Below are positions 127 to 37,474 of a stretch of DNA of 64,000 nt, piece after piece (the stretch's first letter is position 1; each line of letters begins with the position of its first letter). Origin of the DNA: Escherichia coli O127:H6 str. E2348/69 (GTDB lineage Bacteria > Pseudomonadota > Gammaproteobacteria > Enterobacterales > Enterobacteriaceae). The stretch lies in assembly GCF_000026545.1 (NCBI RefSeq), contig NC_011601.1; one strand, written 5' to 3'. The translations under genes were made by a program, and so were the position numbers. The notes beneath the pieces are model-generated. The model did not search any database and was not told where the DNA came from. It was given only the letters and a program-made list of their open reading frames with translations.

Positions 127-291
127 ATGCCCTCCTGTCAGCACTCTGACTTAACCGTGGATGCAAGTCTAAGCCTACGAAGATAAACTCTGTTTCGCAA
201 GGTGACTATACCACACTCATTTCTGCAATATCAGCGCCGCAACTGCACGTATTCCGTTACAATGGCCTCCTGATTCGAAAGGAGTTTTCTT

Positions 292-837
292 ATGGCGCTT
301 AAAGCGACAATTTATAAAGCGACGGTTAATGTGGCCGATCTCGACCGCAACCAGTTTCTCGATGCCTCTCTGACGCTGGCGCGCCATCCTTCAGAAACCC
401 AGGAGCGCATGATGCTGCGCCTGCTGGCGTGGCTAAAATATGCCGATGAACGTCTGCAATTTACCCGTGGTTTGTGTGCCGATGATGAGCCGGAAGCGTG
501 GCTGCGTAACGATCATTTGGGTATTGATTTGTGGATTGAGCTGGGGCTGCCGGATGAGCGACGGATTAAGAAAGCCTGCACCCAGGCCGCAGAAGTGGCG
601 CTGTTTGCCTATAATAGTCGGGCGGCGCAAATCTGGTGGCAGCAAAATCAGAGCAAATGTGCGCAGTTTGCCAATCTTTCCGTCTGGTATCTGGACGACG
701 AGCAGCTGGCGAAAGTGAGCGCTTTTGCCGATCGTACCATGACGCTGCAGGCAACGATTCAGGATGGCGTGATCTGGTTATCGGATGATAAGAATAATCT
801 GGAAGTGAACTTAACTGCCTGGCAACAACCTTCATGA
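292..837 (+). CDS. yaeQ: YaeQ family protein
   Basis: 181-aa ORF; sequence and position upstream of arfB/nlpE match YaeQ. Confidence 0.85.
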
Positions 838-1256
838 TTGTGATTTCCCGACATGTTGCTATCCCCGATGGTGAGCTTGAGATCACCGCCATTCGTGCGC
901 AGGGCGCGGGCGGGCAGCATGTTAATAAGACCTCAACGGCTATTCATCTGCGTTTTGACATTCGGGCGTCCAGCCTGCCAGAGTATTACAAAGAGCGTCT
1001 GCTCGCCGCCAGCCATCACTTGATCAGCAGTGATGGGGTGATTGTCATTAAGGCACAGGAATACCGCAATCAGGAGCTCAACCGCGAAGCGGCGCTGGCC
1101 CGGCTGGTGGCAGTGATTAAAGATTTAACAACAGAACAAAAAGCCCGACGACCCACGCGGCCCACCCGCGCATCAAAAGAGCGCAGGCTGGCATCGAAAG
1201 CACAAAAATCAAGCGTGAAGGCGATGCGCGGCAAAGTGCGCAGCGGTCGGGAATAA
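834..1256 (+). CDS. arfB: Alternative ribosome-rescue factor ArfB (peptidyl-tRNA hydrolase, GGQ motif)
   Basis: 140-aa ORF with [19 protein letters not shown] motif and basic C-terminal tail; start overlaps yaeQ stop. Confidence 0.85.
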
Positions 1257-1269
1257 AAAGAAGGAATGG

Positions 1270-1980
1270 ATGGTGAAAAAAGCGATAGTGACAGCGATGG
1301 CTGTAATCAGCCTCTTTACTCTGATGGGATGTAATAATCGGGCCGAAGTCGATACGCTTTCTCCGGCACAGGCTGCCGAACTGAAACCGATGCCGCAAAG
1401 TTGGCGCGGCGTGCTGCCGTGTGCTGATTGCGAAGGAATCGAAACCTCTCTGTTCCTCGAAAAAGACGGAACCTGGGTGATGAATGAGCGTTATCTGGGG
1501 GCTCGTGAAGAACCTTCCTCCTTCGCTTCCTACGGTACATGGGCGCGAACCGCTGACAAGCTGGTATTAACCGATAGCAAAGGTGAAAAGTCATATTATC
1601 GCGCGAAAGGAGATGCGCTGGAGATGCTCGATCGTGAAGGTAATCCGATTGAATCGCAGTTCAACTATACGCTGGAACCGGCACAATCCAGCTTACCCAT
1701 GACACCGATGACCCTGCGGGGCATGTATTTTTATATGGCTGATGCGGCGACCTTCACTGATTGCGCGACCGGAAAACGTTTCATGGTGGCGAATAACGCA
1801 GAGCTGGAGCGTGGCTACCTGGCTGCGCGCGGTAACAGTGAAAAACCGGTATTACTGTCAGTAGAAGGTCACTTTACGCTTGAGGCTAATCCGGATACCG
1901 GTGCGCCGACCAAAGTATTAGCGCCCGATACGGCAGGTAAATTTTACCCAAACCAGGATTGCAGTAGTTTGGGGCTGTAA
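1270..1980 (+). CDS. nlpE: Outer-membrane lipoprotein NlpE (CutF)
   Basis: 236-aa ORF with lipoprotein signal (LMGC lipobox) and CxxC motif; synteny. Confidence 0.85.
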   Translation: MVKKAIVTAMAVISLFTLMGCNNRAEVDTLSPAQAAELKPMPQSWRGVLPCADCEGIETSLFLEKDGTWVMNERYLGAREEPSSFASYGTWARTADKLVLTDSKGEKSYYRAKGDALEMLDREGNPIESQFNYTLEPAQSSLPMTPMTLRGMYFYMADAATFTDCATGKRFMVANNAELERGYLAARGNSEKPVLLSVEGHFTLEANPDTGAPTKVLAPDTAGKFYPNQDCSSLGL

Positions 1981-2075
1981 CCCGTCTTGAGACAGAAACA
2001 AATGAAATATTGCCTCATGCGCTGCGCTTATCAGTCCTAAAGCATACAATGCAATATTTTGAATTAGCACGATTT

Positions 2076-2112
2076 TGTAGGCCGGATAAGGCGTTCACGC
2101 CGCATCCGGCAT
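2076..2112. repeat. REP (repetitive extragenic palindromic) element
   Basis: tgtaggccggataaggcgttcacgccgcatccggca palindromic unit downstream of nlpE. Confidence 0.7.
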
Positions 2113-2135
2113 TTTGCGCACGAGGCTGGCTTTTA

Positions 2136-2960
2136 TCACTGAGTCAGTCCAACAAAGCGACTTGCTTTAATATAAATCCCTGGCTTCAGGTGCCCAATAT
2201 ACTGTAACTGCGTTTCTGGTTTAAATGCAGAGACATCACCACTACGCATATGCATCAGATCGGCAGGGCTAATCCAGCCTGATTGCGCCAGCGTAAGCGG
2301 ATGCCCGGCTTTGGCAAATGCATCAGTGACAAATTCCGAACAAAACCACGACTTTTTGTCTCCTTCGCCCACACTGCTTAACTGCGCTTTCGCCAGGCCG
2401 CTGACGCACTGTTGACGAAAATCCTCGGAGAACGGATTTAGTGAGCACATCTGGCGAGTCACCATAAATGGAATAAATTCGACAATGCCGCGATAGTTGT
2501 AACCGCTATCTTTAATTTTGTTGGTGAACGCGGTGATTTCTGTGGCTTGTTGCGGGGTAAGATCCGGGACTCGTAAGACGAAAAGCTTATCACTATGCTT
2601 TATGGCTTTTTTAAGGGAAACAATCTGGACGCCAGCGCCTGTCGCTTCGGCAACGTTGTTATCTCCCAAATAGATTGCAACGTGACTCACAGAGGAAGTG
2701 CTGAATACGCGGATACCAAATGAGGTTACCCCAAGGCTTGAGGAGAAAAGCAAATCGCCGGGTTTGAGATCTGGTTCCGTTATTTCTTTTATTGATTGTT
2801 CGGTGAAAGAGCTTTGATGCTGGAATTTAACAGCCCATGTTTTCGCCTCGGCATTTACCACTGTGGCTGATGAGTCTGGCTGGCTGATATCAACGGTACA
2901 GGCCGAAAGTAAAAGAAAGCAGGGGAGAAGCAGGCGGCAGTACGCCTTTGGTTTATCCAT
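2136..2960 (-). CDS. yaeF: YaeF/YiiX-family permuted papain-like lipoprotein
   Basis: ORF on minus strand; probable start MDKPKAYCRLLLPCFLLLSAC (lipobox); synteny between nlpE and proS. Confidence 0.8.
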   Translation of the reverse strand: MDKPKAYCRLLLPCFLLLSACTVDISQPDSSATVVNAEAKTWAVKFQHQSSFTEQSIKEITEPDLKPGDLLFSSSLGVTSFGIRVFSTSSVSHVAIYLGDNNVAEATGAGVQIVSLKKAIKHSDKLFVLRVPDLTPQQATEITAFTNKIKDSGYNYRGIVEFIPFMVTRQMCSLNPFSEDFRQQCVSGLAKAQLSSVGEGDKKSWFCSEFVTDAFAKAGHPLTLAQSGWISPADLMHMRSGDVSAFKPETQLQYIGHLKPGIYIKASRFVGLTQ

Positions 2961-2977
2961 TTTATACAATCCATGTA

Positions 2978-3008
2978 AAAAAGGGCCCCGAAATTCAGGA
3001 CCCTTTCT
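2978..3008 (-). terminator. Probable rho-independent terminator downstream of proS
   Basis: On minus strand AAGGGTCC-loop-GGGCCCTT stem followed by T-run. Confidence 0.5.
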
Positions 3009-3012
3009 GGCA

Positions 3013-4731
3013 TCAGCCTTTAATCTGTTTCACCAGATAATCGACGATGTCACCAGTCTTAATTAACTGTTTCTCGCCGTTACGACGATATTTATATTCG
3101 ATATCATCGTTGTCGAGGTTACGGTCGCCCAGCACAATAGTGTGCGGAATACCGATCAGTTCCATATCAGCAAACATCACGCCCGGACGCTCTTTGCGGT
3201 CATCCAGCAGCACTTCGATACCTTGTGCGCGCAGTTCGCTGTACAGTTTCTCAGCAAGTTCCTGTACGCGGAAGGATTTGTGCATGTTCATTGGCAGAAT
3301 CGCCACCTGGAACGGCGCGATAGCGTCAGGCCATACGATGCCGCGTTCGTCGTAGTTCTGCTCAATCGCCGCAGCTACCACACGCGTTACGCCGATACCG
3401 TAGCAACCCATCGTCAGGATTTGGTTACGGCCATCTTCACCCTGTACGGAGGCTTTCAGTGCTTCGGAGTACTTGGTACCCAGCTGGAAGATGTGACCGA
3501 CTTCGATACCACGTTTGATCAGCAGCGTACCCTGACCATCCGGGCTTGGATCGCCAGCCACCACGTTGCGGATATCAGCAATTTCCGGGGTAGCGACATC
3601 GCGATCCCAGTTGATACCGAAGTAGTGTTTACCATCGATGTTAGCACCAGCAGCGAAATCACTCATCGCCGCAACGGTACGGTCAATCACCACCGGAATC
3701 GGCATGTTTACCGGACCCAGTGAACCCGGACCGGCTTTAACCACGGCACGAATTTCTTCTTCGGTCGCAAAAGTCAGCGGGCTGGCAACCTGCGGCAGTT
3801 TTTCTGCTTTAACTTCGTTCAGCTCGTGGTCACCGCGCACCAGTAGCGCAACCAGCGGGAAGCTACTGCCTTCAACCGCTTTAACCAGCAGAGTCTTAAC
3901 CGTTTTCTCAATCGGCAGATTGAACTGTTCAACCAGTTCCGCGATGGTTTTCGCGTTCGGCGTATCAACCAGCGTCATTTCCTGGGTAGCAGCAGCGCGC
4001 GGTTCTTTCGGCGCGATAGCTTCTGCCAGTTCAATGTTCGCTGCATAGTCAGAAGTATCGGAGAAGACCACATCGTCTTCTCCGCTCTGCGCCAGCACCT
4101 GAAATTCGTGAGAGGCGCTACCGCCGATAGAACCGGTATCGGCCTGTACGGCGCGGAAATCCAGCCCCATGCGGCTGAAGATTTTGCTGTAGGCCGCATA
4201 CATTGCATCGTAGGTTTCCTGCAGGGATTCCTGAGAAGTATGGAAAGAGTAAGCATCTTTCATCAGGAATTCGCGGGAACGCATGACGCCGAAACGCGGA
4301 CGCACTTCGTCGCGGAACTTGGTCTGGATCTGATAGAAGTTCAGCGGCAGCTGTTTGTAAGAGCTCAGCTCGTTACGAATCAGGTCTGTAATCACTTCTT
4401 CATGAGTTGGGCCGAGTACGAACGGACGGTCACCACGGTCAGCAATACGCAGCAATTCCGGGCCATACTGTTCCCAACGACCACTCTCTTGCCACAGTTC
4501 AGATGGCTGAACCACCGGCATTAACACCTCGATCGCACCGGCGTTGTTCATCTCTTCACGCACGATGTTTTCGACTTTTTTCAGAACGCGCACGCCGGTC
4601 GGCAGCCAGGTATATAACCCGGAGGCCAGCTTGCGGATCATCCCGGCGCGCAGCATCAGCTGATGGCTGATCACCTCGGCGTCGGCAGGTGTCTCCTTGA
4701 GAGTGGAGAGCAGGTATTGGCTAGTACGCAT
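3013..4731 (-). CDS. proS: Proline--tRNA ligase
   Basis: Track ORF 3013..4785; likely true start [20 protein letters not shown] at 4731 giving 572 aa; class II aaRS motifs. Confidence 0.9.
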
Positions 4732-31521: not shown

Positions 31522-33250
31522 TCAACTCAACGCCCCCATAATCTTCAACTCCAGCTCGTCCGGCACTTCGTTATACGACAGCACATGCAGCCCCGGCGCA
31601 AACAACCTTGCGTAGCGCGCCAGCAAGGGGCGCAGCTGCGGCGGCACCAGCAGCACTGGATCTTTCCCCGCCGCTTTCATCTGTTCCTTCACCTGCGGCA
31701 TCGTGATCTGAAACTGGTTGAGCATATTCGGGTCCACCGGCACGCTATCGAGCATCACTTTGCCGGCCTGTTGCGCCTGATTCACCACGTTGGTCAGCAG
31801 ATTTTCCAGCTCATTATTCAGCGTATACACCGTCAGCTCCTGCTTGCGAACGAACGGATGGGTTATGCTGCGCCGCAGCGCCAGGCGCACATCGGCCGCC
31901 AGCAGAATATGATCTTTAGTCACCGCACTACTGGCGACCAACACGGTGGCGATGGTGACGATATCGCGCAGGGAAACGCCTTCAGTCAGTAGCGCCCGGT
32001 ACACTTTCAGCAACTAGCTGTAATTGAGCGCCGCGCTCAAATCTTCCGCCAGTCGCGGTGCCATCGACGACAAACGGTTATGCAGCTGAGTAATATCGTC
32101 ATAGTTAAACAAATCAGGAATATAGCTGCGCACAATCTTATTCACATGGGTGGCAATTACGCTGGCGCTGTCGATCACCTGATACCCCATATTCAGCGCC
32201 TTCGCTTTCTGCGCGGGCTGAATCCAGGTGACCGGCATCCCGTACGCCGGGTCGTTCCCCAGCACGCCGTCTATCTCGCCGTAGGTTTCGCTGGAGGGCA
32301 GGGCCATCAGTTTATCTGCCGGAATATCCGCTTCATCAGCCTTAATGCCGTTGATGAAAATGGCGTACTGGCTGGGCTTGAGGCGGAAGTTTTCCCGAAT
32401 GCGGATCTCCGGCAGCAGCACGCCGTTGCCGTCAGAAATCACCTGCCGCACGCCGCGAATCCGCTGGGTGAGCGGGTTACCCTGTGCTTTGTCCACCAGC
32501 GCCACCAGCTTGTAGCCGAGGCTTAAACTGATGGGCTCGATCAGCGGAATGGTTTCCCAACTGACCTGTTGCTCGCTGGTTTCGGTGATGGTTCGGGTCA
32601 GCGTTTCGAGGCTTTTCTCCTCCGCCTCCGCCGCCTGCGGCTGTTTGCTCATCCGCCAGCCGGTAAAGCCAAGCAGGGCGCTGAACAGCAAAAACGGCAG
32701 GTGCGGCATCCCCGGCACCACCGCCAGCACAAACATAATTCCGGTAGCGGTGTAGAGCACCGACGGGCTTGCCAGCAACTGGTGGCGCACGTCATGGGCA
32801 ATATCGCCATTATCGCTGACGCGGGTGACGATAATCGCCGCTGCGGTGGAGAGCAGCAGGGAAGGGATCTGTGCCACCAGTCCGTCGCCGATGGTCATCA
32901 ACACATATTGCTGGAAGGCGGCGTCGGCGCTCAGGTTGTATTTGAAGATCCCGATACAGACGCCGCCGATCAGGTTGATCGCCAGAATCATCATCCCGGC
33001 GATGGCGTCTCCGCGCACAAACTTCGATGCCCCGTCCATCGCACCGTAGAAATCGGCCTCGCTGGCAACATCTTTACGCCGGGTTTGCGCCTGCGCCTGG
33101 TTGATCAATCCGGCGTTAAGATCGGCGTCAATCGCCATCTGTTTGCCGGGCATCGCGTCCAGGGTAAAGCGGGCAGAAACCTCGGAAATACGCTCGGCCC
33201 CTTTGGTGACGACAATAAAGTTGATAGTGAACAGCGTCAGTAAATCCGAG
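31522..33250 (-). pseudogene. lfhA: Flag-2 lateral flagellar export protein FlhA homologue remnant (N-terminally deleted, in-frame TAG)
   Basis: FlhA-like sequence (FTLDAMPGKQMAIDADLNAGLI) runs from about 33250 to 32017; TAG at 32014-32016 interrupts, FlhA-like C-terminus continues 32013..31522. Confidence 0.7.
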
Positions 33251-33991
33251 CGTGAAAGCATTATCGCCGCGCTGCACGGGCAGTCGATTTTCAATGGCGG
33301 CGGGCTGTCGCCGTTAAATAAAATCAGCCCGACGCATCCGCCGAAACCTGCCACCGTGGCGGTGCCGGAAGAGACGGAGAAAAAAGCGCGCGACGTCAAC
33401 GAGAAAACGGCGCTACTGAAGAAGAAGTCCGCCACTGAGCTTGGCGAGCTGGCGACCAGTATCAACACCATCGTCCGCGATGCGCATATGGAAGCCAATC
33501 TGGAGATGGAGATTGTTCCGCAGGGATTACGCGTGCTGATTAAAGATGACCAGAACCGCAATATGTTTGAACGCGGCAGCGCGAAGATTATGCCGTTCTT
33601 TAAAACGCTGCTGGTGGAACTCGCGCCGGTATTCGACTCGCTCGACAACAAAATTATTATTACCGGGCATACCGATGCGATGGCCTATAAAAGCAATATC
33701 TACAACAACTGGAACCTTTCGGGTGACCGCGCGCTTTCGGCTCGTCGGGTACTGGAAGAGGCCGGGATGCCGGAAGATAAAGTGATGCAGGTGAGCGCAA
33801 TGGCGGACCAGATGCTGCTGGACGCGAAAAATCCGCAAAGTGCGGGTAACCGGCGCATTGAGATTATGGTGCTCACCAAAAGCGCGTCCGATACGTTGTA
33901 TCAATATTTTGGTCAGCATGGGGATAAGGTGGTGCAGCCGCTGGTGAAAAAGCTGGATAAGCAGCAGGTGCTTTCGCACCGAACGCGTTAA
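33251..33991 (+). pseudogene. lafU: Flag-2 MotB-like LafU remnant (OmpA-like C-terminal domain retained)
   Basis: OmpA/MotB-like C-terminal domain (IIITGHTDAMAYKSNIYNNWNLSGDRALSARRVL); no N-terminal TM segment; abuts lfhA remnant. Confidence 0.6.
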
Positions 33992-34061: not shown

Positions 34062-35117
34062 ATGCGTAAAATCATTCATGTGGATATGGACTGCTTTTTC
34101 GCCGCGGTGGAGATGCGCGACAATCCCGCCCTGCGCGATATCCCTATTGCTATTGGCGGCAGCCGCGAACGCCGGGGGGTGATCAGCACCGCCAATTATC
34201 CCGCGCGTAAATTTGGCGTGCGTAGCGCAATGCCAACCGGCATGGCGCTCAAACTGTGTCCGCATCTCACCTTGCTTCCAGGACGCTTTGACGCCTACAA
34301 AGAAGCGTCAAATCATATCCGCGAAATTTTCTCGCGCTATACCTCGCGCATTGAACCGTTATCACTGGATGAAGCCTATCTCGAGGTCACCGATAGTGTG
34401 CATTGCCACGGCTCCGCGACCCTCATCGCCCAGGAAATCCGCCAGACGATTTTCAACGAGCTGCAATTGACGGCATCTGCGGGCGTTGCGCCGGTAAAGT
34501 TTCTCGCCAAAATTGCTTCCGACATGAATAAACCCAACGGTCAGTTTGTGATTACTCCGGCTGAGGTTCCGGCATTTCTGCAAACCTTACCGCTGGCAAA
34601 AATTCCCGGCGTCGGCAAAGTCTCAGCGGCTAAACTGGAAGCTATGGGGCTACGAACCTGCGGTGATGTGCAAAAGTGTGATCTGGTGACTCTGCTCAAA
34701 CGTTTTGGCAAATTTGGCCGCATTTTGTGGGAGCGTAGTCAGGGCATTGACGAGCGCGATGTTAACAGCGAAAGGTTGCGAAAATCCGTCGGTGTAGAAC
34801 GTACGATGGCGGAAGATATTCATCACTGGTCTGAATGTGAAGCGATCATCGAGCGGCTTTACCCTGAACTGGAGCGTCGTTTGGCAAAGGTAAAACCTGA
34901 TTTGCTGATTGCCCGCCAGGGGGTGAAATTAAAGTTCGACGATTTTCAGCAAACTACTCAGGAGCACGTCTGGCCGCGGCTGAATAAATCTGCTCTAATC
35001 GCCACCGCGCGTAAAACCTGGGATGAACGCCGCGGCGGGCGCGGTGTGCGGCTGGTGGGGCTGCATGTGACGTTGCTTGACCCGCAAATGGAAAGACAAC
35101 TGGTGCTGGGATTATGA
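34062..35117 (+). CDS. dinB: DNA polymerase IV (Y-family translesion polymerase)
   Basis: 351-aa ORF starting MRKIIHVDMDCFFAAVEMRDNPALRDIPIAIGG. Confidence 0.9.
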   Translation: MRKIIHVDMDCFFAAVEMRDNPALRDIPIAIGGSRERRGVISTANYPARKFGVRSAMPTGMALKLCPHLTLLPGRFDAYKEASNHIREIFSRYTSRIEPLSLDEAYLEVTDSVHCHGSATLIAQEIRQTIFNELQLTASAGVAPVKFLAKIASDMNKPNGQFVITPAEVPAFLQTLPLAKIPGVGKVSAAKLEAMGLRTCGDVQKCDLVTLLKRFGKFGRILWERSQGIDERDVNSERLRKSVGVERTMAEDIHHWSECEAIIERLYPELERRLAKVKPDLLIARQGVKLKFDDFQQTTQEHVWPRLNKSALIATARKTWDERRGGRGVRLVGLHVTLLDPQMERQLVLGL

Positions 35118-35566
35118 ATAACATACAAATAAGAAACTATCAGCCTGGCGATTTTCAGCAACTATGCGCTATTTTCATTAGAGCGGTTACGATGACCGCC
35201 AGTCAGCATTATTCACCACAACAAATTGCCGCCTGGGCGCAGATTGACGAATCTCGCTGGAAGGAGAAACTCGCGAAATCACAAGTGCGGGTTGCAGTTA
35301 TTAATGCACAACCGGTTGGTTTTATCTCCCGCATTGAACATTATATCGATATGTTATTTGTTGACCCTGAATACACCCTCCGTGGGGTTGCCAGCGCTTT
35401 GTTAAAACCTTTGATTAAGTCTGAATCCGAACTTACGGTGGACGCCAGCATAACCGCAAAACCCTTTTTTGAACGTTATGGTTTTCAGACAGTTAAGCAG
35501 CAGCGCGTTGAATGCCGGGGAGCGTGGTTTACTAATTTTTATATGCGATATAAACCGCAACATTAA
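35114..35566 (+). CDS. yafP: GNAT-family acetyltransferase YafP
   Basis: 150-aa ORF; start overlaps dinB stop (ATGA); GNAT-like fold signature. Confidence 0.8.
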   Translation: MNNIQIRNYQPGDFQQLCAIFIRAVTMTASQHYSPQQIAAWAQIDESRWKEKLAKSQVRVAVINAQPVGFISRIEHYIDMLFVDPEYTLRGVASALLKPLIKSESELTVDASITAKPFFERYGFQTVKQQRVECRGAWFTNFYMRYKPQH

Positions 35567-35744
35567 ATCCAGCTTGCAAAGAAAATAACGCCCGCCTAGT
35601 ATGTGCGCGTTTTCTTATTCCACAAACTGCAAGGAGGTAAATCATGACAAATCCTTTATCAATGACTCTTTGCAGACCTTTCCAGGATTAATTCTTTTTT
35701 TCTTGCCCTGGATTCGTCTGCCATTTCCTGATTTTTATTCATAA

Positions 35745-36896
35745 ATGGAATGGTACATGGGCAAATATATTCGTCCCTTATCTGATGCGGTACTTACCAT
35801 CGCATCTGATGACCTGTGGATCGAGAGTTCAGCGATCCAACAATTACACACCACGGCAAATTTACCCGACATGCAACGCGTAGTAGGGATGCCAGATTTA
35901 CACCCCGGACGCGGCTATCCGATTGGCGCAGCGTTCTTCTCCGTAGGCCGTTTTTACCCGGCACTGGTCGGCAATGATATCGGCTGCGGTATGGCGCTAT
36001 GGCAAACAGATATTTTCGCGCGCAAATACAACGCCGATAAGTTTGAAAAGCGATTATCAGATCTGGATGACGTTGCTGAAGAAAGCTGGCTGGAGGAAAA
36101 CCTGCCGTCAGCATTTGCACAGCATCCGTGGCGCAGCTCGCTTGGCTCCATCGGTGGCGGTAACCACTTCGCAGAACTGCAACAGATTGATCAAATTATC
36201 GACGCGGAACTGTTTGCACTGGCTGGTCTGGATGCGCAGCATCTGCAACTGCTGGTTCATAGCGGCTCGAGGGGGTTGGGGCAGTCTATTTTACAGCGGC
36301 ATATTGCCTCGTTTTCGCATCATGGTTTGCCGGAAGGCAGTGACGACGCGCTAAGTTATATTGCGGAACATGATGATGCGCTGGCGTTTGCGCGTATTAA
36401 TCGCCAGCTGATCGCTTTGCGCATAATGCAACAAGTTAAGGCCAACGGAAATTCGGTTCTGGATGTGGCGCATAACTTTGTTAGCGCATGTCGAATCGGC
36501 GATCAACAGGGCTGGTTACACCGTAAAGGGGCTACGCCGGATGACAACGGTCTGGTGATTATTCCCGGTTCACGCGGTGATTACTCCTGGCTGGTTAAGC
36601 CTGTTGCGAACGAAAAAACGCTCCACTCGCTGGCGCATGGGGCAGGGCGTAAATGGGGGCGCACCGAGTGTAAAGGGCGTCTGGCAGCGAAATACACGGC
36701 GACGCAACTCTCACGTACTGAACTTGGCAGTCGGGTAATTTGTCGCGATAAACAACTCATCTTTGAAGAAGCGCCACAAGCCTATAAATCGGCTGAAAGT
36801 GTGGTGCAATGTCTGGTGCTGGCTGGGTTAATTATTCCTGTCGCGCGACTGCGTCCGGTGCTGACGCTCAAAAACAGTGGAGGGAAAAAAGGATGA
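35745..36896 (+). CDS. rtcB2: RtcB-family RNA ligase paralogue (RtcB2; full-length counterpart of K-12 ykfJ)
   Basis: 383-aa ORF with RtcB motifs [30 protein letters not shown]; stop overlaps prfH start (ATGA); true start may be 35757. Confidence 0.8.
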
Positions 36897-37474
36897 TCTT
36901 GCTACAACTCTCCTCAGCTCAGGGGCCGGAAGAATGTTGTCTCGCAGTGAAAAAGGCACTGGACAGGCTGATTAAAGAAGCTGCCCGACAAGACGTCGCG
37001 GTAACGGTGCTGGAAACAGAAACGGGTCGCTACTCTGACACACTACGTTCGGCGCTGGTTTCACTTGATGGCGACAACGCATGGGCTCTAAGCGAAAGCT
37101 GGTGCGGCACTATTCAGTGGATTTGTCCGAGTCCGTATCGGCCTCATCATGGGCGCAAAAACTGGTTTCTGGGCATTGGGCGTTTTACCGCTGATGAGCA
37201 GGAACAATCGGATGCAATCCGTTATGAGACGCTGCGTTCGTCGGGGCCGGGCGGTCAACATGTCAATAAAACCGACTCGGCGGTACGCGCCACGCATCTG
37301 GCATCCGGTATTAGCGTGAAGGTTCAGTCAGAGCGCAGTCAGCATGCTAACAAACGGCTGGCGCGATTACTGATTGCCTGGAAGCTGGAACAACAGCAAC
37401 AGGAAAATAGCGCGGCGCTGAAATCGCAGCGGCGAATGTTCCATCACCAGATTGAACGTGGCAACCCGCGATGA
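36893..37474 (+). CDS. prfH: Peptide chain release factor homologue PrfH (GGQ motif)
   Basis: Start [24 protein letters not shown] motif [15 protein letters not shown]; translationally coupled to rtcB2. Confidence 0.85.

What the first reader, a model, noticed from the sequence alone, without database searches (positions are those of the whole stretch)
35567..35744. Strong Shine-Dalgarno plus 15-codon ORF in the leader of rtcB2-prfH
AAGGAGGT (35631-35638) sits 5 nt upstream of an ATG at 35644 that opens a 15-codon ORF (MTNPLSMTLCRPFQD, stop at 35689-35691), ending about 55 nt before rtcB2. A near-consensus ribosome-binding site on such a short ORF, directly upstream of a ribosome-repair module, could be a regulatory leader peptide that senses translation status, or a small protein gene.
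Basis: inference. Interest (0 to 1): 0.35.

Follow-up and report, generated by a model that had tools for sequence, protein, structure and literature searches.

The report
Leader-peptide switch of ribosome-repair operon
The 15-codon mini-gene in front of the E. coli ribosome-repair genes rtcB2-prfH is real and conserved; it is the unannotated counterpart of a leader peptide known from Pseudomonas aeruginosa (PA5471.1), and it probably turns the repair genes on when ribosomes stall at the start of translation.

Summary
In detail: AAGGAGGT lies at 35631-38, ATG at 35644, and the 15-codon ORF stops at 35689-91. It sits 65 nt before the conserved rtcB2 start at 35757. All 80 rtcB2-prfH loci fetched from gamma- and beta-proteobacteria have such a 13-16-codon ORF with a strong Shine-Dalgarno site. 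The P. aeruginosa copy is PA5471.1, the characterised stalling-sensing leader of armZ (an RtcB2 homologue) and PA5470 (prfH).

The peptide is not what is conserved. Codons 2-7 vary freely, while CUUUGC(A/G)G is nucleotide-invariant because it belongs to two mutually exclusive helices. P1 pairs it with the SD. P2 pairs it with a downstream YCYGC block. A third helix, P3, buries the rtcB2 ribosome-binding site. All three helices show covariation.

The reading frame is nevertheless kept: the ATG-to-TGC spacing is only 21, 24 or 27 nt, and the stop lies 18 nt after TGC.

Folding models predict that a ribosome held on codons 1-5 favours P2 and loosens P3. Colicin E3-cleaved ribosomes, the substrate of RtcB2-PrfH, are reported to stall at start codons.

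Verdict: this is an unannotated E. coli member of the PA5471.1 leader family, probably an ermC-like translational attenuator. The mechanism is inferred, not demonstrated.

The parts
35574..35579 (+). Putative sigma-70 -35 hexamer TTGCAA
   Evidence: TTGC(A/T)A-N17-TAnnAT is found 22-34 nt upstream of the helix-1 sequence in almost every genus, although the flanking genes differ. It scores 8/12, below the 9/12 cut-off of the promoter scan. Inferred; no TSS data.
35597..35602 (+). Putative -10 hexamer TAGTAT, followed by a GC-rich stretch (GTGCGCG); the TSS is inferred near 35609
   Evidence: Conserved position and 17-nt spacer across genera. The TSS position is inference only.
35627..35636 (+). 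Segment 1: CUGCAAGGAG, the 5' strand of helix P1, covering most of the Shine-Dalgarno site
   Evidence: Pairs with 35666-75 in the MFE structure. P1 is 88.6% paired in 58 distinct leaders against 43-54% in slid registers, and pair 13-21 shows AU 24 / GC 23.
35631..35638 (+). Shine-Dalgarno AAGGAGGT of the leader ORF
   Evidence: AAGGAG(GT) or a close variant precedes the uORF ATG by 4-8 nt in 80/80 loci.
35644..35691 (+). Leader ORF, 15 codons plus TAA (MTNPLSMTLCRPFQD); orthologue of PA5471.1
   Evidence: The frame is kept across indels (ATG-to-TGC spacing of 21, 24 or 27 nt only) and the stop is 18 nt after TGC in about 56 of 60 distinct uORFs. The PA7 copy, MIQFSTLCRLRLA, matches published PA5471.1 features: 13 aa, Q3, F4 and about 250 bp upstream.
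35666..35677 (+). Segment 2: CUCUUUGCAGAC (codons 8-12). It is the 3' strand of P1 (35666-75) and the 5' strand of P2 (35672-77)
   Evidence: CUUUGC(A/G)G is nucleotide-invariant in 74 leaders, including GC-rich Pseudomonas. The shared GC(A/G)G makes P1 and P2 mutually exclusive.
35681..35712 (+). Inner hairpin: UCCAGG (35681-86, the last uORF codons) pairs with CCUGGA (35707-12), with a U-rich loop that contains the stop codon
   Evidence: Present in every E. coli fold. Together with P2 it forms a -18.4 kcal/mol hairpin (z = -4.9, 0 of 200 shuffles as good). Conservation was judged by eye only.
35716..35727 (+). Segment 3: GUCUGCCAUUUC. It is the 3' strand of P2 (35716-21) and the 5' strand of P3 (35719-27)
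   Evidence: P2 is 86.6% paired against 27-45% in slid registers. Pairs 28-43 (AU 40 / GC 12 / GU 6) and 30-41 (GC 39 / AU 16 / GU 3) have no broken cells. P2 is also the only helix RNAalifold found on the plain MAFFT alignment.
35738..35739 (.). Insertion point of the ERIC/IRU element (55 or 127 nt) in many other E. coli strains, located in the apical loop of P3; empty in this window
   Evidence: alignment. Two-piece matches are the majority of the sampled rows.
35747..35755 (+). Segment 4: GGAAUGGUA, the 3' strand of P3. It occupies -10 to -2 of the rtcB2 start, i.e. its ribosome-binding site
   Evidence: P3 is 71.8% paired against 20-45% in slid registers, with compensatory pairs 48-70 (AU 24 / UA 11) and 46-72 (CG 43 / UA 6). 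It is present in the free-RNA MFE structure and lost when a ribosome is placed on the uORF start codon.
35757..36896 (+). rtcB2 (RNA ligase RtcB family, 379 aa), the regulated gene
   Evidence: RefSeq annotation of the identical region; homologues listed.
36893..37474 (+). prfH (release factor H), overlapping the rtcB2 stop. Here it is 193 codons because of a TGA at 37472-74

Best explanation
The region 35574-35756 is the promoter and regulatory leader of the rtcB2-prfH ribosome-repair operon. The 15-codon ORF is a leader ORF that is translated so that its translation can be monitored. It is not a functional peptide. It is the E. coli orthologue of P. aeruginosa PA5471.1.

Proposed mechanism; the steps below are inferred unless marked otherwise.
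(1) In free or normally translated mRNA, segment 2 (codons 8-11) pairs with the SD region (helix P1). Segment 3 pairs with the rtcB2 ribosome-binding site (helix P3), so rtcB2-prfH is poorly translated.
(2) A ribosome held on the start codon or on codons 1-5 covers the SD strand but leaves segment 2 exposed.
(3) Segment 2 then pairs with the 5' part of segment 3 (helix P2, stacked on the inner hairpin). This strips 1-3 pairs and the flanking extension from P3 and makes the rtcB2 RBS about 3-5 kcal/mol easier to open.
(4) A healthy ribosome instead runs through segment 2 and terminates 18 nt after the Cys codon while still covering segment 2. P3 reforms, and afterwards P1.

In this way each initiating ribosome tests its own competence. 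Colicin E3-cleaved ribosomes, the substrate of RtcB2-PrfH, stall at start codons and would hold the switch on.

Shown here: the anatomy, the conservation, covariation of P1, P2 and P3, maintenance of the reading frame, and the computed accessibility changes.
Shown by others, in P. aeruginosa only: translation of the leader and induction by stalling.
Inferred: that E. coli works the same way, and that the output is translational.
For: Homology and context:
- A leader ORF is present in 80/80 rtcB2 loci of gamma- and beta-proteobacteria, in Salmonella and in 5,388 of 5,426 E. coli genomes.
- In a metagenome scan, 19 of 19 true leaders with enough sequence precede rtcB2.
- The PA7 copy matches published PA5471.1 properties. 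armZ is RtcB-like and PA5470 is prfH.

RNA switch:
- The CUUUGC(A/G)G core is invariant.
- Covariation supports P1, P2 and P3, each well above slid-register and shuffle controls, and RNAalifold independently recovers P2.

Coding constraint:
- Indels occur only in multiples of 3, the stop position is fixed, and the N-terminal half is hypervariable.

Switch behaviour:
- Enforcing P2 instead of P1 lowers the RBS2 opening cost by a median of 3.2 kcal/mol (E. coli 11.8 to 6.0). The drop exceeds 1 kcal/mol in 88% of 60 leaders and never goes the other way.
- In the ribosome-position scan, P-site codons 1-5 lower the cost (E. coli 11.0 to 5.8-6.0) and later positions raise it by 1-1.5 kcal/mol.

External experiments:
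- E3-cleaved ribosomes stall at the start codon (PMC13166195).
- The P. aeruginosa Q3-amber mutant is constitutive, whereas the Q3K missense change does not raise armZ expression (PMC13041342). Codon 2-3 occupancy lies in the predicted ON window for the 13-codon Pseudomonas form (L064).
- K-12 ykfJ is inducible by 4-azaleucine (PMC3516279).

No intrinsic terminator lies between the uORF and rtcB2 in E. coli.
Against: - There is no direct evidence in E. coli that the uORF is translated or that it regulates anything. I found it in no Ribo-seq or small-ORF paper or supplement that I could search.
- The published P. aeruginosa model is transcriptional (a terminator formed by segments 3 and 4), not translational.
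- P2 and P3 overlap by only 1-3 nt, so they are not strictly exclusive.
- The predicted accessibility change is small in some lineages, for example Pseudomonas sp. 21 and Serratia oryzae.
- P3 alone is not unusually stable in E. coli (z = -1.3).
- The folding models are equilibrium models with an assumed ribosome footprint.
- Covariation counts are per sequence, not per evolutionary event.
- The helices were first seen in these same sequences.
Confidence: 0.7

Rival explanations
1. Same leader, but the output is transcriptional, as proposed for P. aeruginosa. Completed uORF translation leads to premature termination before or within rtcB2 (intrinsic or Rho-dependent), and stalling prevents it. 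This is not exclusive of the best explanation, because translational repression of rtcB2 could itself cause Rho-dependent polarity.
For: Published model for PA5471.1. The spacer after the uORF is pyrimidine-rich and G-poor, and a U-rich tract follows segment 3 in most lineages.
Against: No intrinsic terminator-like site lies on the + strand in 35000-36000. The U-tract begins 8-10 nt after the last paired base of P2 and lies in the loop of P3. The roughly 150-nt stretch between the uORF and the conserved core is specific to P. aeruginosa and absent from the other Pseudomonas species and from the enterics; I assume, but could not confirm, that the published terminators lie in it. What is conserved is pairing with the rtcB2 RBS. 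Rho dependence could not be tested.
Confidence: 0.2
2. The ORF encodes a functional 15-residue peptide, i.e. it is a small protein gene.
For: A strong SD, and an ORF conserved in length.
Against: Codons 2-7 and 12-13 vary freely among close relatives. The conserved L-C-(R/G) and Q residues are fixed as the nucleotides CUU UGC RGR and CAG, third positions included, even in GC-rich genomes, and these nucleotides lie in helices P1, P2 and the inner hairpin. Length varies from 13 to 17 residues.
Confidence: 0.03
3. The ORF is not translated. The conserved sequences are only an RNA structure, for example a stability or processing element, and the ATG and stop codon are incidental.
For: The strongest conservation is at the RNA level. 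P1 buries most of the SD in the free RNA, at -14.7 kcal/mol.
Against: The ATG lies 4-8 nt after the SD in 80/80 loci. Indels between the ATG and the core occur only in multiples of 3. The stop position is fixed relative to the core. A stop occurs in the +1 frame in 55 of 60 distinct uORFs, while the uORF frame is always open. PA5471.1 point mutants (Q3 amber versus Q3K) behave as expected for a translated ORF.
Confidence: 0.04
4. A constitutively repressive uORF or ribosome decoy. It simply lowers downstream expression, or permits reinitiation, without sensing anything.
For: Deleting PA5471.1 raises armZ expression.
Against: A simple decoy does not explain the covarying alternative helix P2, the fixed geometry of the stop codon, or the drug and stall inducibility shown in P. 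aeruginosa. The 65-nt gap argues against termination-reinitiation coupling.
Confidence: 0.05

Closest known systems
PA5471.1 leader peptide of P. aeruginosa armZ (PA5471)-PA5470 (Morita et al. 2009, J Bacteriol 191:4966; reviewed in PMC12057347 and PMC13041342)
   Same: Homologous. It is a short leader ORF with a strong SD upstream of an RtcB2-type gene followed by prfH, and it shares the CCUUUGCAGG core and the SD-pairing helix. The PA7 copy, MIQFSTLCRLRLA, sits in the same alignment as the E. coli ORF. Ribosome stalling on the leader induces the downstream genes.
   Different: The P. aeruginosa leader is 13 codons long and lies about 250 nt upstream, with a lineage-specific insert of about 150 nt. 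Its P3 is degenerate and the published output is transcription termination. The E. coli form is compact (65-nt spacer), has no terminator, and its conserved third helix buries the rtcB2 RBS. ArmZ has the added anti-MexZ function; E. coli RtcB2 is a 16S rRNA ligase. I could not read the 2009 paper, so I do not know whether it noted homologues outside Pseudomonas.
ermC / cat / cmlA-type leader-peptide translational attenuation
   Same: Works alike. A ribosome stalled on a short leader ORF frees a segment that pairs with an anti-RBS segment, which exposes the downstream RBS. The layout is a four-segment 1:2 / 2:3 / 3:4 arrangement.
   Different: Not homologous. In erm and cat leaders the stall depends on a specific nascent peptide plus a drug. 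Here the peptide is not conserved, segment 1 is the leader's own SD, and the productive stall window is the start codon and the first few codons.
Amino-acid biosynthesis attenuators (trpL, hisL, and similar)
   Same: A leader ORF coupled to alternative RNA helices.
   Different: Those have runs of regulatory codons and an intrinsic terminator. Neither is present here.
arfA regulation by trans-translation (conceptual analogue, from my own knowledge)
   Same: A ribosome-rescue factor whose expression rises when the process it backs up fails.
   Different: A different mechanism (a truncated mRNA that is tagged by tmRNA). No leader ORF is involved.
RtcR/sigma-54 control of the paralogous rtcBA operon in E. 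coli
   Same: Controls an RtcB RNA-repair ligase in response to translation or RNA damage.
   Different: That is a protein activator with a sigma-54 promoter. Here there is a sigma-70-like promoter plus a cis-acting leader.

Membership tests
PA5471.1-type leader of rtcB2(armZ)-prfH operons | A short ORF with an SD located upstream of, and on the same strand as, an RtcB2-family gene followed by prfH | tested here: met
   Window: uORF 35644-91, rtcB2 35757-36896, prfH 36893-37474. The same arrangement is seen in 80/80 loci.
PA5471.1-type leader of rtcB2(armZ)-prfH operons | Sequence homology to PA5471.1 itself | tested here: met
   The PA7 ORF MIQFSTLCRLRLA matches the published 13-aa length, Q3, F4, the C7T amber change, the C12A F4L change and the position about 250 bp upstream. 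It shares GCAAAGGAGG...CCUUUGCAGG with the E. coli leader through a continuous series of intermediates.
PA5471.1-type leader of rtcB2(armZ)-prfH operons | The leader is translated, and interfering with its translation induces the downstream genes | not testable with these tools
   Shown for P. aeruginosa in the literature. For E. coli there is only indirect support: frame conservation and ykfJ induction by 4-azaleucine.
PA5471.1-type leader of rtcB2(armZ)-prfH operons | Alternative mRNA structures controlled by ribosome position | tested here: met
   P1 and P2 share GC(A/G)G, and both covary. Accessibility depends on ribosome position.
PA5471.1-type leader of rtcB2(armZ)-prfH operons | A transcription terminator (segments 3:4) between the leader and the structural gene | tested here: not met
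   No terminator-like site on the + strand in 35000-36000. The simple scan finds none in L073 either, so this scan is of limited power.
erm/cat-type translational attenuators | The RBS or start of the regulated gene is sequestered in a helix whose partner can be captured by a leader-ORF segment | tested here: met
   P3 covers -10 to -2 of rtcB2. P2 competes for its 5' end, and the opening cost falls by a median of 3.2 kcal/mol.
erm/cat-type translational attenuators | A conserved nascent-peptide arrest motif acting together with a specific drug | tested here: not met
   No peptide-level conservation remains once the RNA-constrained codons are set aside.
Functional small protein | The amino-acid sequence is conserved more than the nucleotides (synonymous variation at conserved residues) | tested here: not met
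   The conserved residues use invariant codons: CTT in 19/20, TGC in 20/20 and CAG in 19/20 of the 15-codon uORFs. The remaining positions are hypervariable.
trp/his-type attenuators | Tandem regulatory codons plus an intrinsic terminator | tested here: not met
Rfam families | A match to a curated covariance model | tested here: not met
   The only hit was STnc350, on the minus strand, at E = 0.54 and 20.7 bits against a gathering score of 60. It is absent from the Salmonella locus, and nothing covers the leader in any of five genera.

The most novel reading that the evidence does not exclude
The leader is a self-test device for ribosome integrity, and it is the ancestral regulator of all proteobacterial rtcB2-prfH operons. 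A ribosome with a 16S rRNA cleaved in the decoding centre (colicin E3-type damage) initiates on the very strong SD, cannot leave the start codon, and so holds the mRNA in the P2 conformation. That conformation unmasks the RBS of the enzymes that repair this exact lesion. Healthy ribosomes reset the switch by translating through it. On this reading, the P. aeruginosa PA5471.1/ArmZ/MexXY antibiotic-induction circuit is a derived co-option of a damage-sensing translational attenuator, not a mechanism unique to MexXY.
Probability: 0.4. Interest if true: 0.8.

Novelty: new member of a known kind. Interest (0 to 1): 0.62.

Why it matters
Work on E. coli RtcB2-PrfH from 2022 to 2026 established what the proteins do, namely rescue and religate colicin E3-cleaved ribosomes. 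The papers I could search used plasmid promoters and say nothing about how the native operon is controlled.

Separately, the P. aeruginosa antibiotic-resistance literature treats the PA5471.1 leader as peculiar to MexXY regulation. Linking the two gives four things:
- A concrete, testable regulatory model for a ribosome-repair system that is present in most E. coli.
- An explanation of why the inducers are ribosome poisons.
- The suggestion that the clinically important ArmZ induction pathway evolved from a ribosome-damage sensor.
- A compact natural RNA device, about 150 nt long, that would report on early-elongation competence of ribosomes.

It also adds an unannotated translated ORF to E. 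coli K-12, where the leader survives in front of the ykfJ-prfH deletion remnant.

Tried and rejected
1. yafP terminator. I first read 35588-35612 as a terminator hairpin for yafP. Comparison across genera shows that the region is a conserved promoter instead.
2. Rfam STnc350. The minus-strand hit (E = 0.54) is rejected as chance because the Salmonella rtcB2 locus has the leader but no STnc350 match.
3. Plain MAFFT alignment plus RNAalifold. This mis-registered Proteus and Providencia and recovered only P2. I replaced it with gapless windows anchored on motifs that are independent of the pairing.
4. First ribosome-position scan. It allowed P1 to close around a ribosome sitting in its loop, which is sterically implausible, and it gave noisy results. 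I redid it with the SD strand masked.
5. Intrinsic terminator in the E. coli leader: none found.
6. The 47-aa ORF at 35601-35744 in another frame. It is broken by T-run length variation in strain BH100 and in L009, so it is not a gene.
7. Apparent exceptions without a uORF (Citrobacter L011 and L012, and L016). They do have it, behind a variant SD (AAAGGGGG or AAAGGGAG) that fell below my filter.
8. Ribo-seq and small-ORF literature. There is no mention of the peptide, and nothing in the one supplementary file held as text.
9. Morita et al. 2009, the primary PA5471.1 paper, could not be read.
10. Distant PrfH operons at 37-45% identity. The contigs were mostly too short, and the four with usable upstream sequence show no SD-led leader of this type. 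Conservation outside the gamma- and beta-proteobacteria therefore remains open.
Full report
**1. The observation**

The window is an E. coli chromosome. Gene order around the finding is dinB (34062-35117), yafP (35114-35566), a 190-nt spacer, rtcB2 (35757-36896), prfH (36893-37474) and pepD on the minus strand.

AAGGAGGT is at 35631-38, followed by five bases and ATG at 35644. Fifteen sense codons encode MTNPLSMTLCRPFQD, and TAA is at 35689-91.

One correction concerns the distance to rtcB2. RefSeq and all homologues start rtcB2 at ATGGGC (35757), not at the in-frame ATG at 35745, which is not conserved. The gap is therefore 65 nt.

The octamer on its own is not statistically remarkable: 2 copies in the window against 1.09 expected. 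Nothing is annotated in the spacer in RefSeq, including the curated K-12 record.

**2. Conservation**

I aligned diverse RtcB2 proteins and fetched 80 loci, one genome per species. They span Escherichia, Citrobacter, Klebsiella, Kosakonia, Budviciaceae, Proteus, Providencia, Morganella, Serratia, many Pseudomonas, and beta-proteobacteria such as Cupriavidus, Achromobacter and Aquitalea.

- An ATG-initiated ORF of 13-16 codons, rarely more, with AAGGAG(GT) 4-8 nt upstream was found by a mechanical scan in 77 loci.
- The other three (two Citrobacter and L016) have the same ORF behind AAAGGGGG or AAAGGGAG. The total is 80 of 80.
- Salmonella has it too: MTLYSLNALCRHFQH.
- Within E. coli, the 96-nt core is present in 5,388 of 5,426 complete genomes. 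The exact sequence is in K-12, where rtcB2-prfH is a deletion remnant.
- A metagenome scan for the SD-plus-core motif gave 54 matches. Twenty-one have a leader-type uORF, and all 19 of those with enough downstream sequence are followed by rtcB2 about 150 nt later (273 nt in the P. aeruginosa-type contig L130). The other 33 have no uORF and no rtcB2, which is about what I expected by chance for a 20-base pattern (my own estimate).

The leader is therefore specific to this operon.

**3. Identity with PA5471.1**

The PGAP note on some RtcB2 entries refers to drug-inducible mexXY expression. In P. aeruginosa, armZ (PA5471) is RtcB-like, PA5470 is prfH, and a 13-residue leader peptide, PA5471.1, lies about 250 bp upstream. 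PA5471.1 links ribosome stalling to armZ expression.

The ORF I found in P. aeruginosa PA7 (L073) is MIQFSTLCRLRLA. It is 13 residues long and lies 254 nt upstream. Its Gln3 and Phe4 use the codons implied by the published C7T (Q3 amber) and C12A (F4L) mutations. It is PA5471.1, and it lies in one continuous alignment with the E. coli ORF.

None of the E. coli RtcB2-PrfH papers I could search mention a leader or the native promoter. A 2025 review calls leader-peptide control 'unique to MexXY'. I could not read the 2009 primary paper.

**4. What is actually conserved**

The peptide is not. Among 15-codon versions, codons 2-7, 12, 13 and 15 take many different residues.

The apparent L-C-(R/G) motif is the nucleotide string CUU UGC (A/G)G(A/G). 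It is invariant at third positions in 74 leaders, including GC-rich Pseudomonas (that CUU is a rare Leu codon there is from my own knowledge). This string is complementary to the equally invariant GCAA(A)GG that overlaps the SD.

The ORF as such is nevertheless under constraint:
- The ATG-to-TGC distance is 21, 24 or 27 nt and nothing else, in 60 distinct sequences.
- The stop lies 18 nt after TGC in about 56 of 60.
- The +1 frame contains a stop in 55 of 60, whereas the uORF frame is always open.

This is the signature of a leader ORF whose translation matters, not its product.

**5. The RNA switch**

Downstream blocks are also conserved: GCCCYGG, then (G/C)YCYGCCA..UCC, a U-rich stretch, and AUGGAUUGGUAU abutting the rtcB2 AUG.

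I built a gapless 80-column alignment of 58 distinct leaders from four windows. The windows were anchored on motifs chosen independently of the pairing. I then counted three helices.

| Helix | Window coordinates | Partners | Standard pairs | Slid registers | Main covarying pairs |
|---|---|---|---|---|---|
| P1 | 35627-36 / 35666-75 | SD region : codons 8-11 | 88.6% | 43-54% | AU 24 / GC 23 at one pair |
| P2 | 35672-77 / 35716-21 | codons 10-12 : YCYGC block | 86.6% | 27-45% | AU 40 / GC 12 / GU 6; GC 39 / AU 16 / GU 3; CG 39 / UG 13 / UA 4 (first two with no broken cells) |
| P3 | 35719-27 / 35747-55 | rest of that block : -10 to -2 of the rtcB2 AUG | 71.8% | 20-45% | AU 24 / UA 11; CG 43 / UA 6 |

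In all three helices, 0 of 500 shuffles reached the observed pairing or covariation score. Examples of the compensatory series in P2:
- E. coli GCAGAC/GUCUGC
- Proteus GCGGAC/GUCCGC
- Morganella GCGGGC/GCCCGC
- Pseudomonas GCAGGUC/GGCCUGC
- L084 GCAGAGC/GCUCUGC

RNAalifold on an unrefined MAFFT alignment independently reported P2 and nothing else.

P1 and P2 share GC(A/G)G, so they exclude each other. P2 and P3 overlap by 1-3 nt.

In E. coli:
- The P1 hairpin folds at -14.7 kcal/mol (z = -3.6).
- P2 plus the inner hairpin (35681-86 / 35707-12) folds at -18.4 kcal/mol (z = -4.9).
- P3 alone folds at -8.5 kcal/mol (z = -1.3).

**6. Promoter**

TTGC(A/T)A-N17-TAnnAT lies 22-34 nt upstream of segment 1 in nearly all genera, although the neighbouring genes differ. 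In E. coli it is TTGCAA at 35574-79 and TAGTAT at 35597-602. The leader and operon are therefore probably an independent transcription unit, not only a read-through of dinB-yafP. This is an inference; I have no TSS data.

**7. How it probably works**

In the free-RNA MFE structure, P1, the inner hairpin and P3 coexist, and the rtcB2 RBS is buried. With a ribosome placed on the uORF start codon, full P2 forms and P3 disappears.

- Enforcing P2 (SD strand masked) instead of P1 lowers the free-energy cost of opening the rtcB2 RBS window (-13 to +3) by a median of 3.2 kcal/mol across 60 leaders. In E. coli it falls from 11.8 to 6.0. The drop exceeds 1 kcal/mol in 88% of leaders and never goes the other way.
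- I scanned ribosome positions with the SD strand masked whenever a ribosome is on the uORF. A P site at least 5 codons before the Cys codon lowers the cost by 2-3 kcal/mol on average (E. coli 11.0 to 5.8-6.0). Positions from 3 codons before Cys through to the stop raise it by 1-1.5 kcal/mol.

The model is therefore ermC-like. An early stall gives P2 and opens the RBS. Normal elongation and termination, with the terminating ribosome still covering segment 2, gives P3 and then P1, which closes the RBS.

The model accounts for published P. aeruginosa genetics:
- A stop at codon 3 (Q3 amber) is constitutive, whereas Q3K does not raise armZ expression. For the 13-codon Pseudomonas form modelled (L064), the ON window is codons 1-3.
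- The clinical deletion of nt 16-22 removes ACCCUUU, the P1 strand, and leaves GCAGG, the P2 strand. That deletion also shifts the frame, so it does not discriminate between models.

The model also fits the biology. Colicin E3-cleaved ribosomes, which RtcB2-PrfH repairs, accumulate at the start codon in toeprinting assays (PMC13166195). In addition, K-12 ykfJ is reported to be inducible by 4-azaleucine.

**8. Caveats**

- Nothing has been measured in E. coli.
- The accessibility calculations are equilibrium models with an assumed footprint.
- P2 and P3 overlap only slightly.
- The effect is small in some lineages, for example Pseudomonas sp. 21.
- Covariation counts are per sequence rather than per evolutionary event.
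- The published P. aeruginosa output is transcription termination. P. aeruginosa has a lineage-specific insert of about 150 nt and a degenerate P3, so it may be the derived form. A transcriptional component in E. coli, for example Rho-dependent polarity, cannot be excluded.
- No intrinsic terminator is present in the E. coli leader.

**9. Comparison and novelty**

The element is a member of the PA5471.1 leader family by homology, context and alternative-structure logic. It does not meet the 'terminator' feature of the published model. It works like erm/cat translational attenuators but lacks their peptide-specific arrest. It is not a small-protein gene, not a trp-type attenuator, and not in Rfam.

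I rate it a new member of a known kind. As far as the searchable literature shows, three points are new:
- The leader exists in E. coli, and throughout proteobacterial rtcB2-prfH operons.
- It has a covariation-supported three-helix architecture.
- It is linked to start-codon stalling of damaged ribosomes.

Conservation beyond gamma- and beta-proteobacteria could not be established.

Noticed in passing
window 37472-37474: prfH in this window has TGA where strain ECCNB12-2 has CGA and Salmonella has CGG. PrfH is therefore 193 rather than 204 residues, losing the last 11. Whether the truncated protein is functional is unknown.
   Followed up: partly
window 35738/35739; L002, L003, L005, L008, L017, L076: Many E. 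coli strains carry an ERIC/IRU element at this point, either 127 nt or an internally deleted 55-nt form. The point lies in the apical loop of helix P3, between the anti-RBS strand and the rtcB2 RBS. K. spallanzanii and another enterobacterium have inserts at the equivalent place. The inserts may change regulation of the operon.
   Followed up: partly
window 34062-35566: dinB overlaps yafP directly (35114-35117), so the yafN-yafO toxin-antitoxin pair present in K-12 and in strain ECCNB12-2 is absent here, as in strain M15.
   Followed up: no
window 35603-35612 and the equivalent in other genera: The stretch between the putative -10 hexamer and the predicted TSS is GC-rich (GTGCGCG, ACGCGCA, CCGCCGC) and is followed by a T-rich run in most genera. 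It resembles the discriminator of stringently controlled promoters (my own knowledge). I did not test this.
   Followed up: no
window 35615-35622 with 35746-35753: When P3 is lost in the model, the 5'-UTR sequence UUAUUCCA pairs with UGGAAUGG of the rtcB2 RBS. Proteus has a similar AUCCAU/AUGGAU possibility, but by eye the pairing is not consistently conserved.
   Followed up: partly
window 35601-35744: A 47-codon ORF in another frame ends exactly at the in-frame ATG at 35745. It is broken by T-run length differences in strain BH100 and in L009, so it is not conserved.
   Followed up: yes
L149 (JGI Ga0496889_0000265), 167-3209: A metagenomic contig encodes RtcB and a PrfH (38% identical to the E. 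coli protein) next to a T4-type portal protein gene, with two small ORFs between them. It may be a phage carrying a ribosome-repair module.
   Followed up: no
L150 (CP044016.1), about 200 nt upstream of rtcB at 1198: A distant PrfH operon with a 466-aa RtcB has a 15-codon ORF in its leader, MKSLTTISTIQFIAA, without an SD. The sequence UUGCAGCC-UAAA-GGUCGCAA forms a hairpin around its stop codon. This is a single sequence and could be chance.
   Followed up: no
L088 2180-2303 (Salmonella, between dinB and the leader): A sub-threshold Rfam match to V_AS5 on the minus strand (39.9 bits against a gathering score of 96). It may be a repetitive intergenic element rather than that RNA.
   Followed up: no
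window 32014-33991: Overlapping ORFs resemble FlhA (minus strand) and a MotB-type protein (plus strand) upstream of dinB. From my own knowledge of K-12, these look like the lfhA/lafU remnants of the Flag-2 cluster.
   Followed up: no
E. coli plasmids (and summaries): Fifteen of the matches to the yafP-leader-rtcB2 region lie on plasmid records rather than chromosomes. I did not examine them.
   Followed up: no
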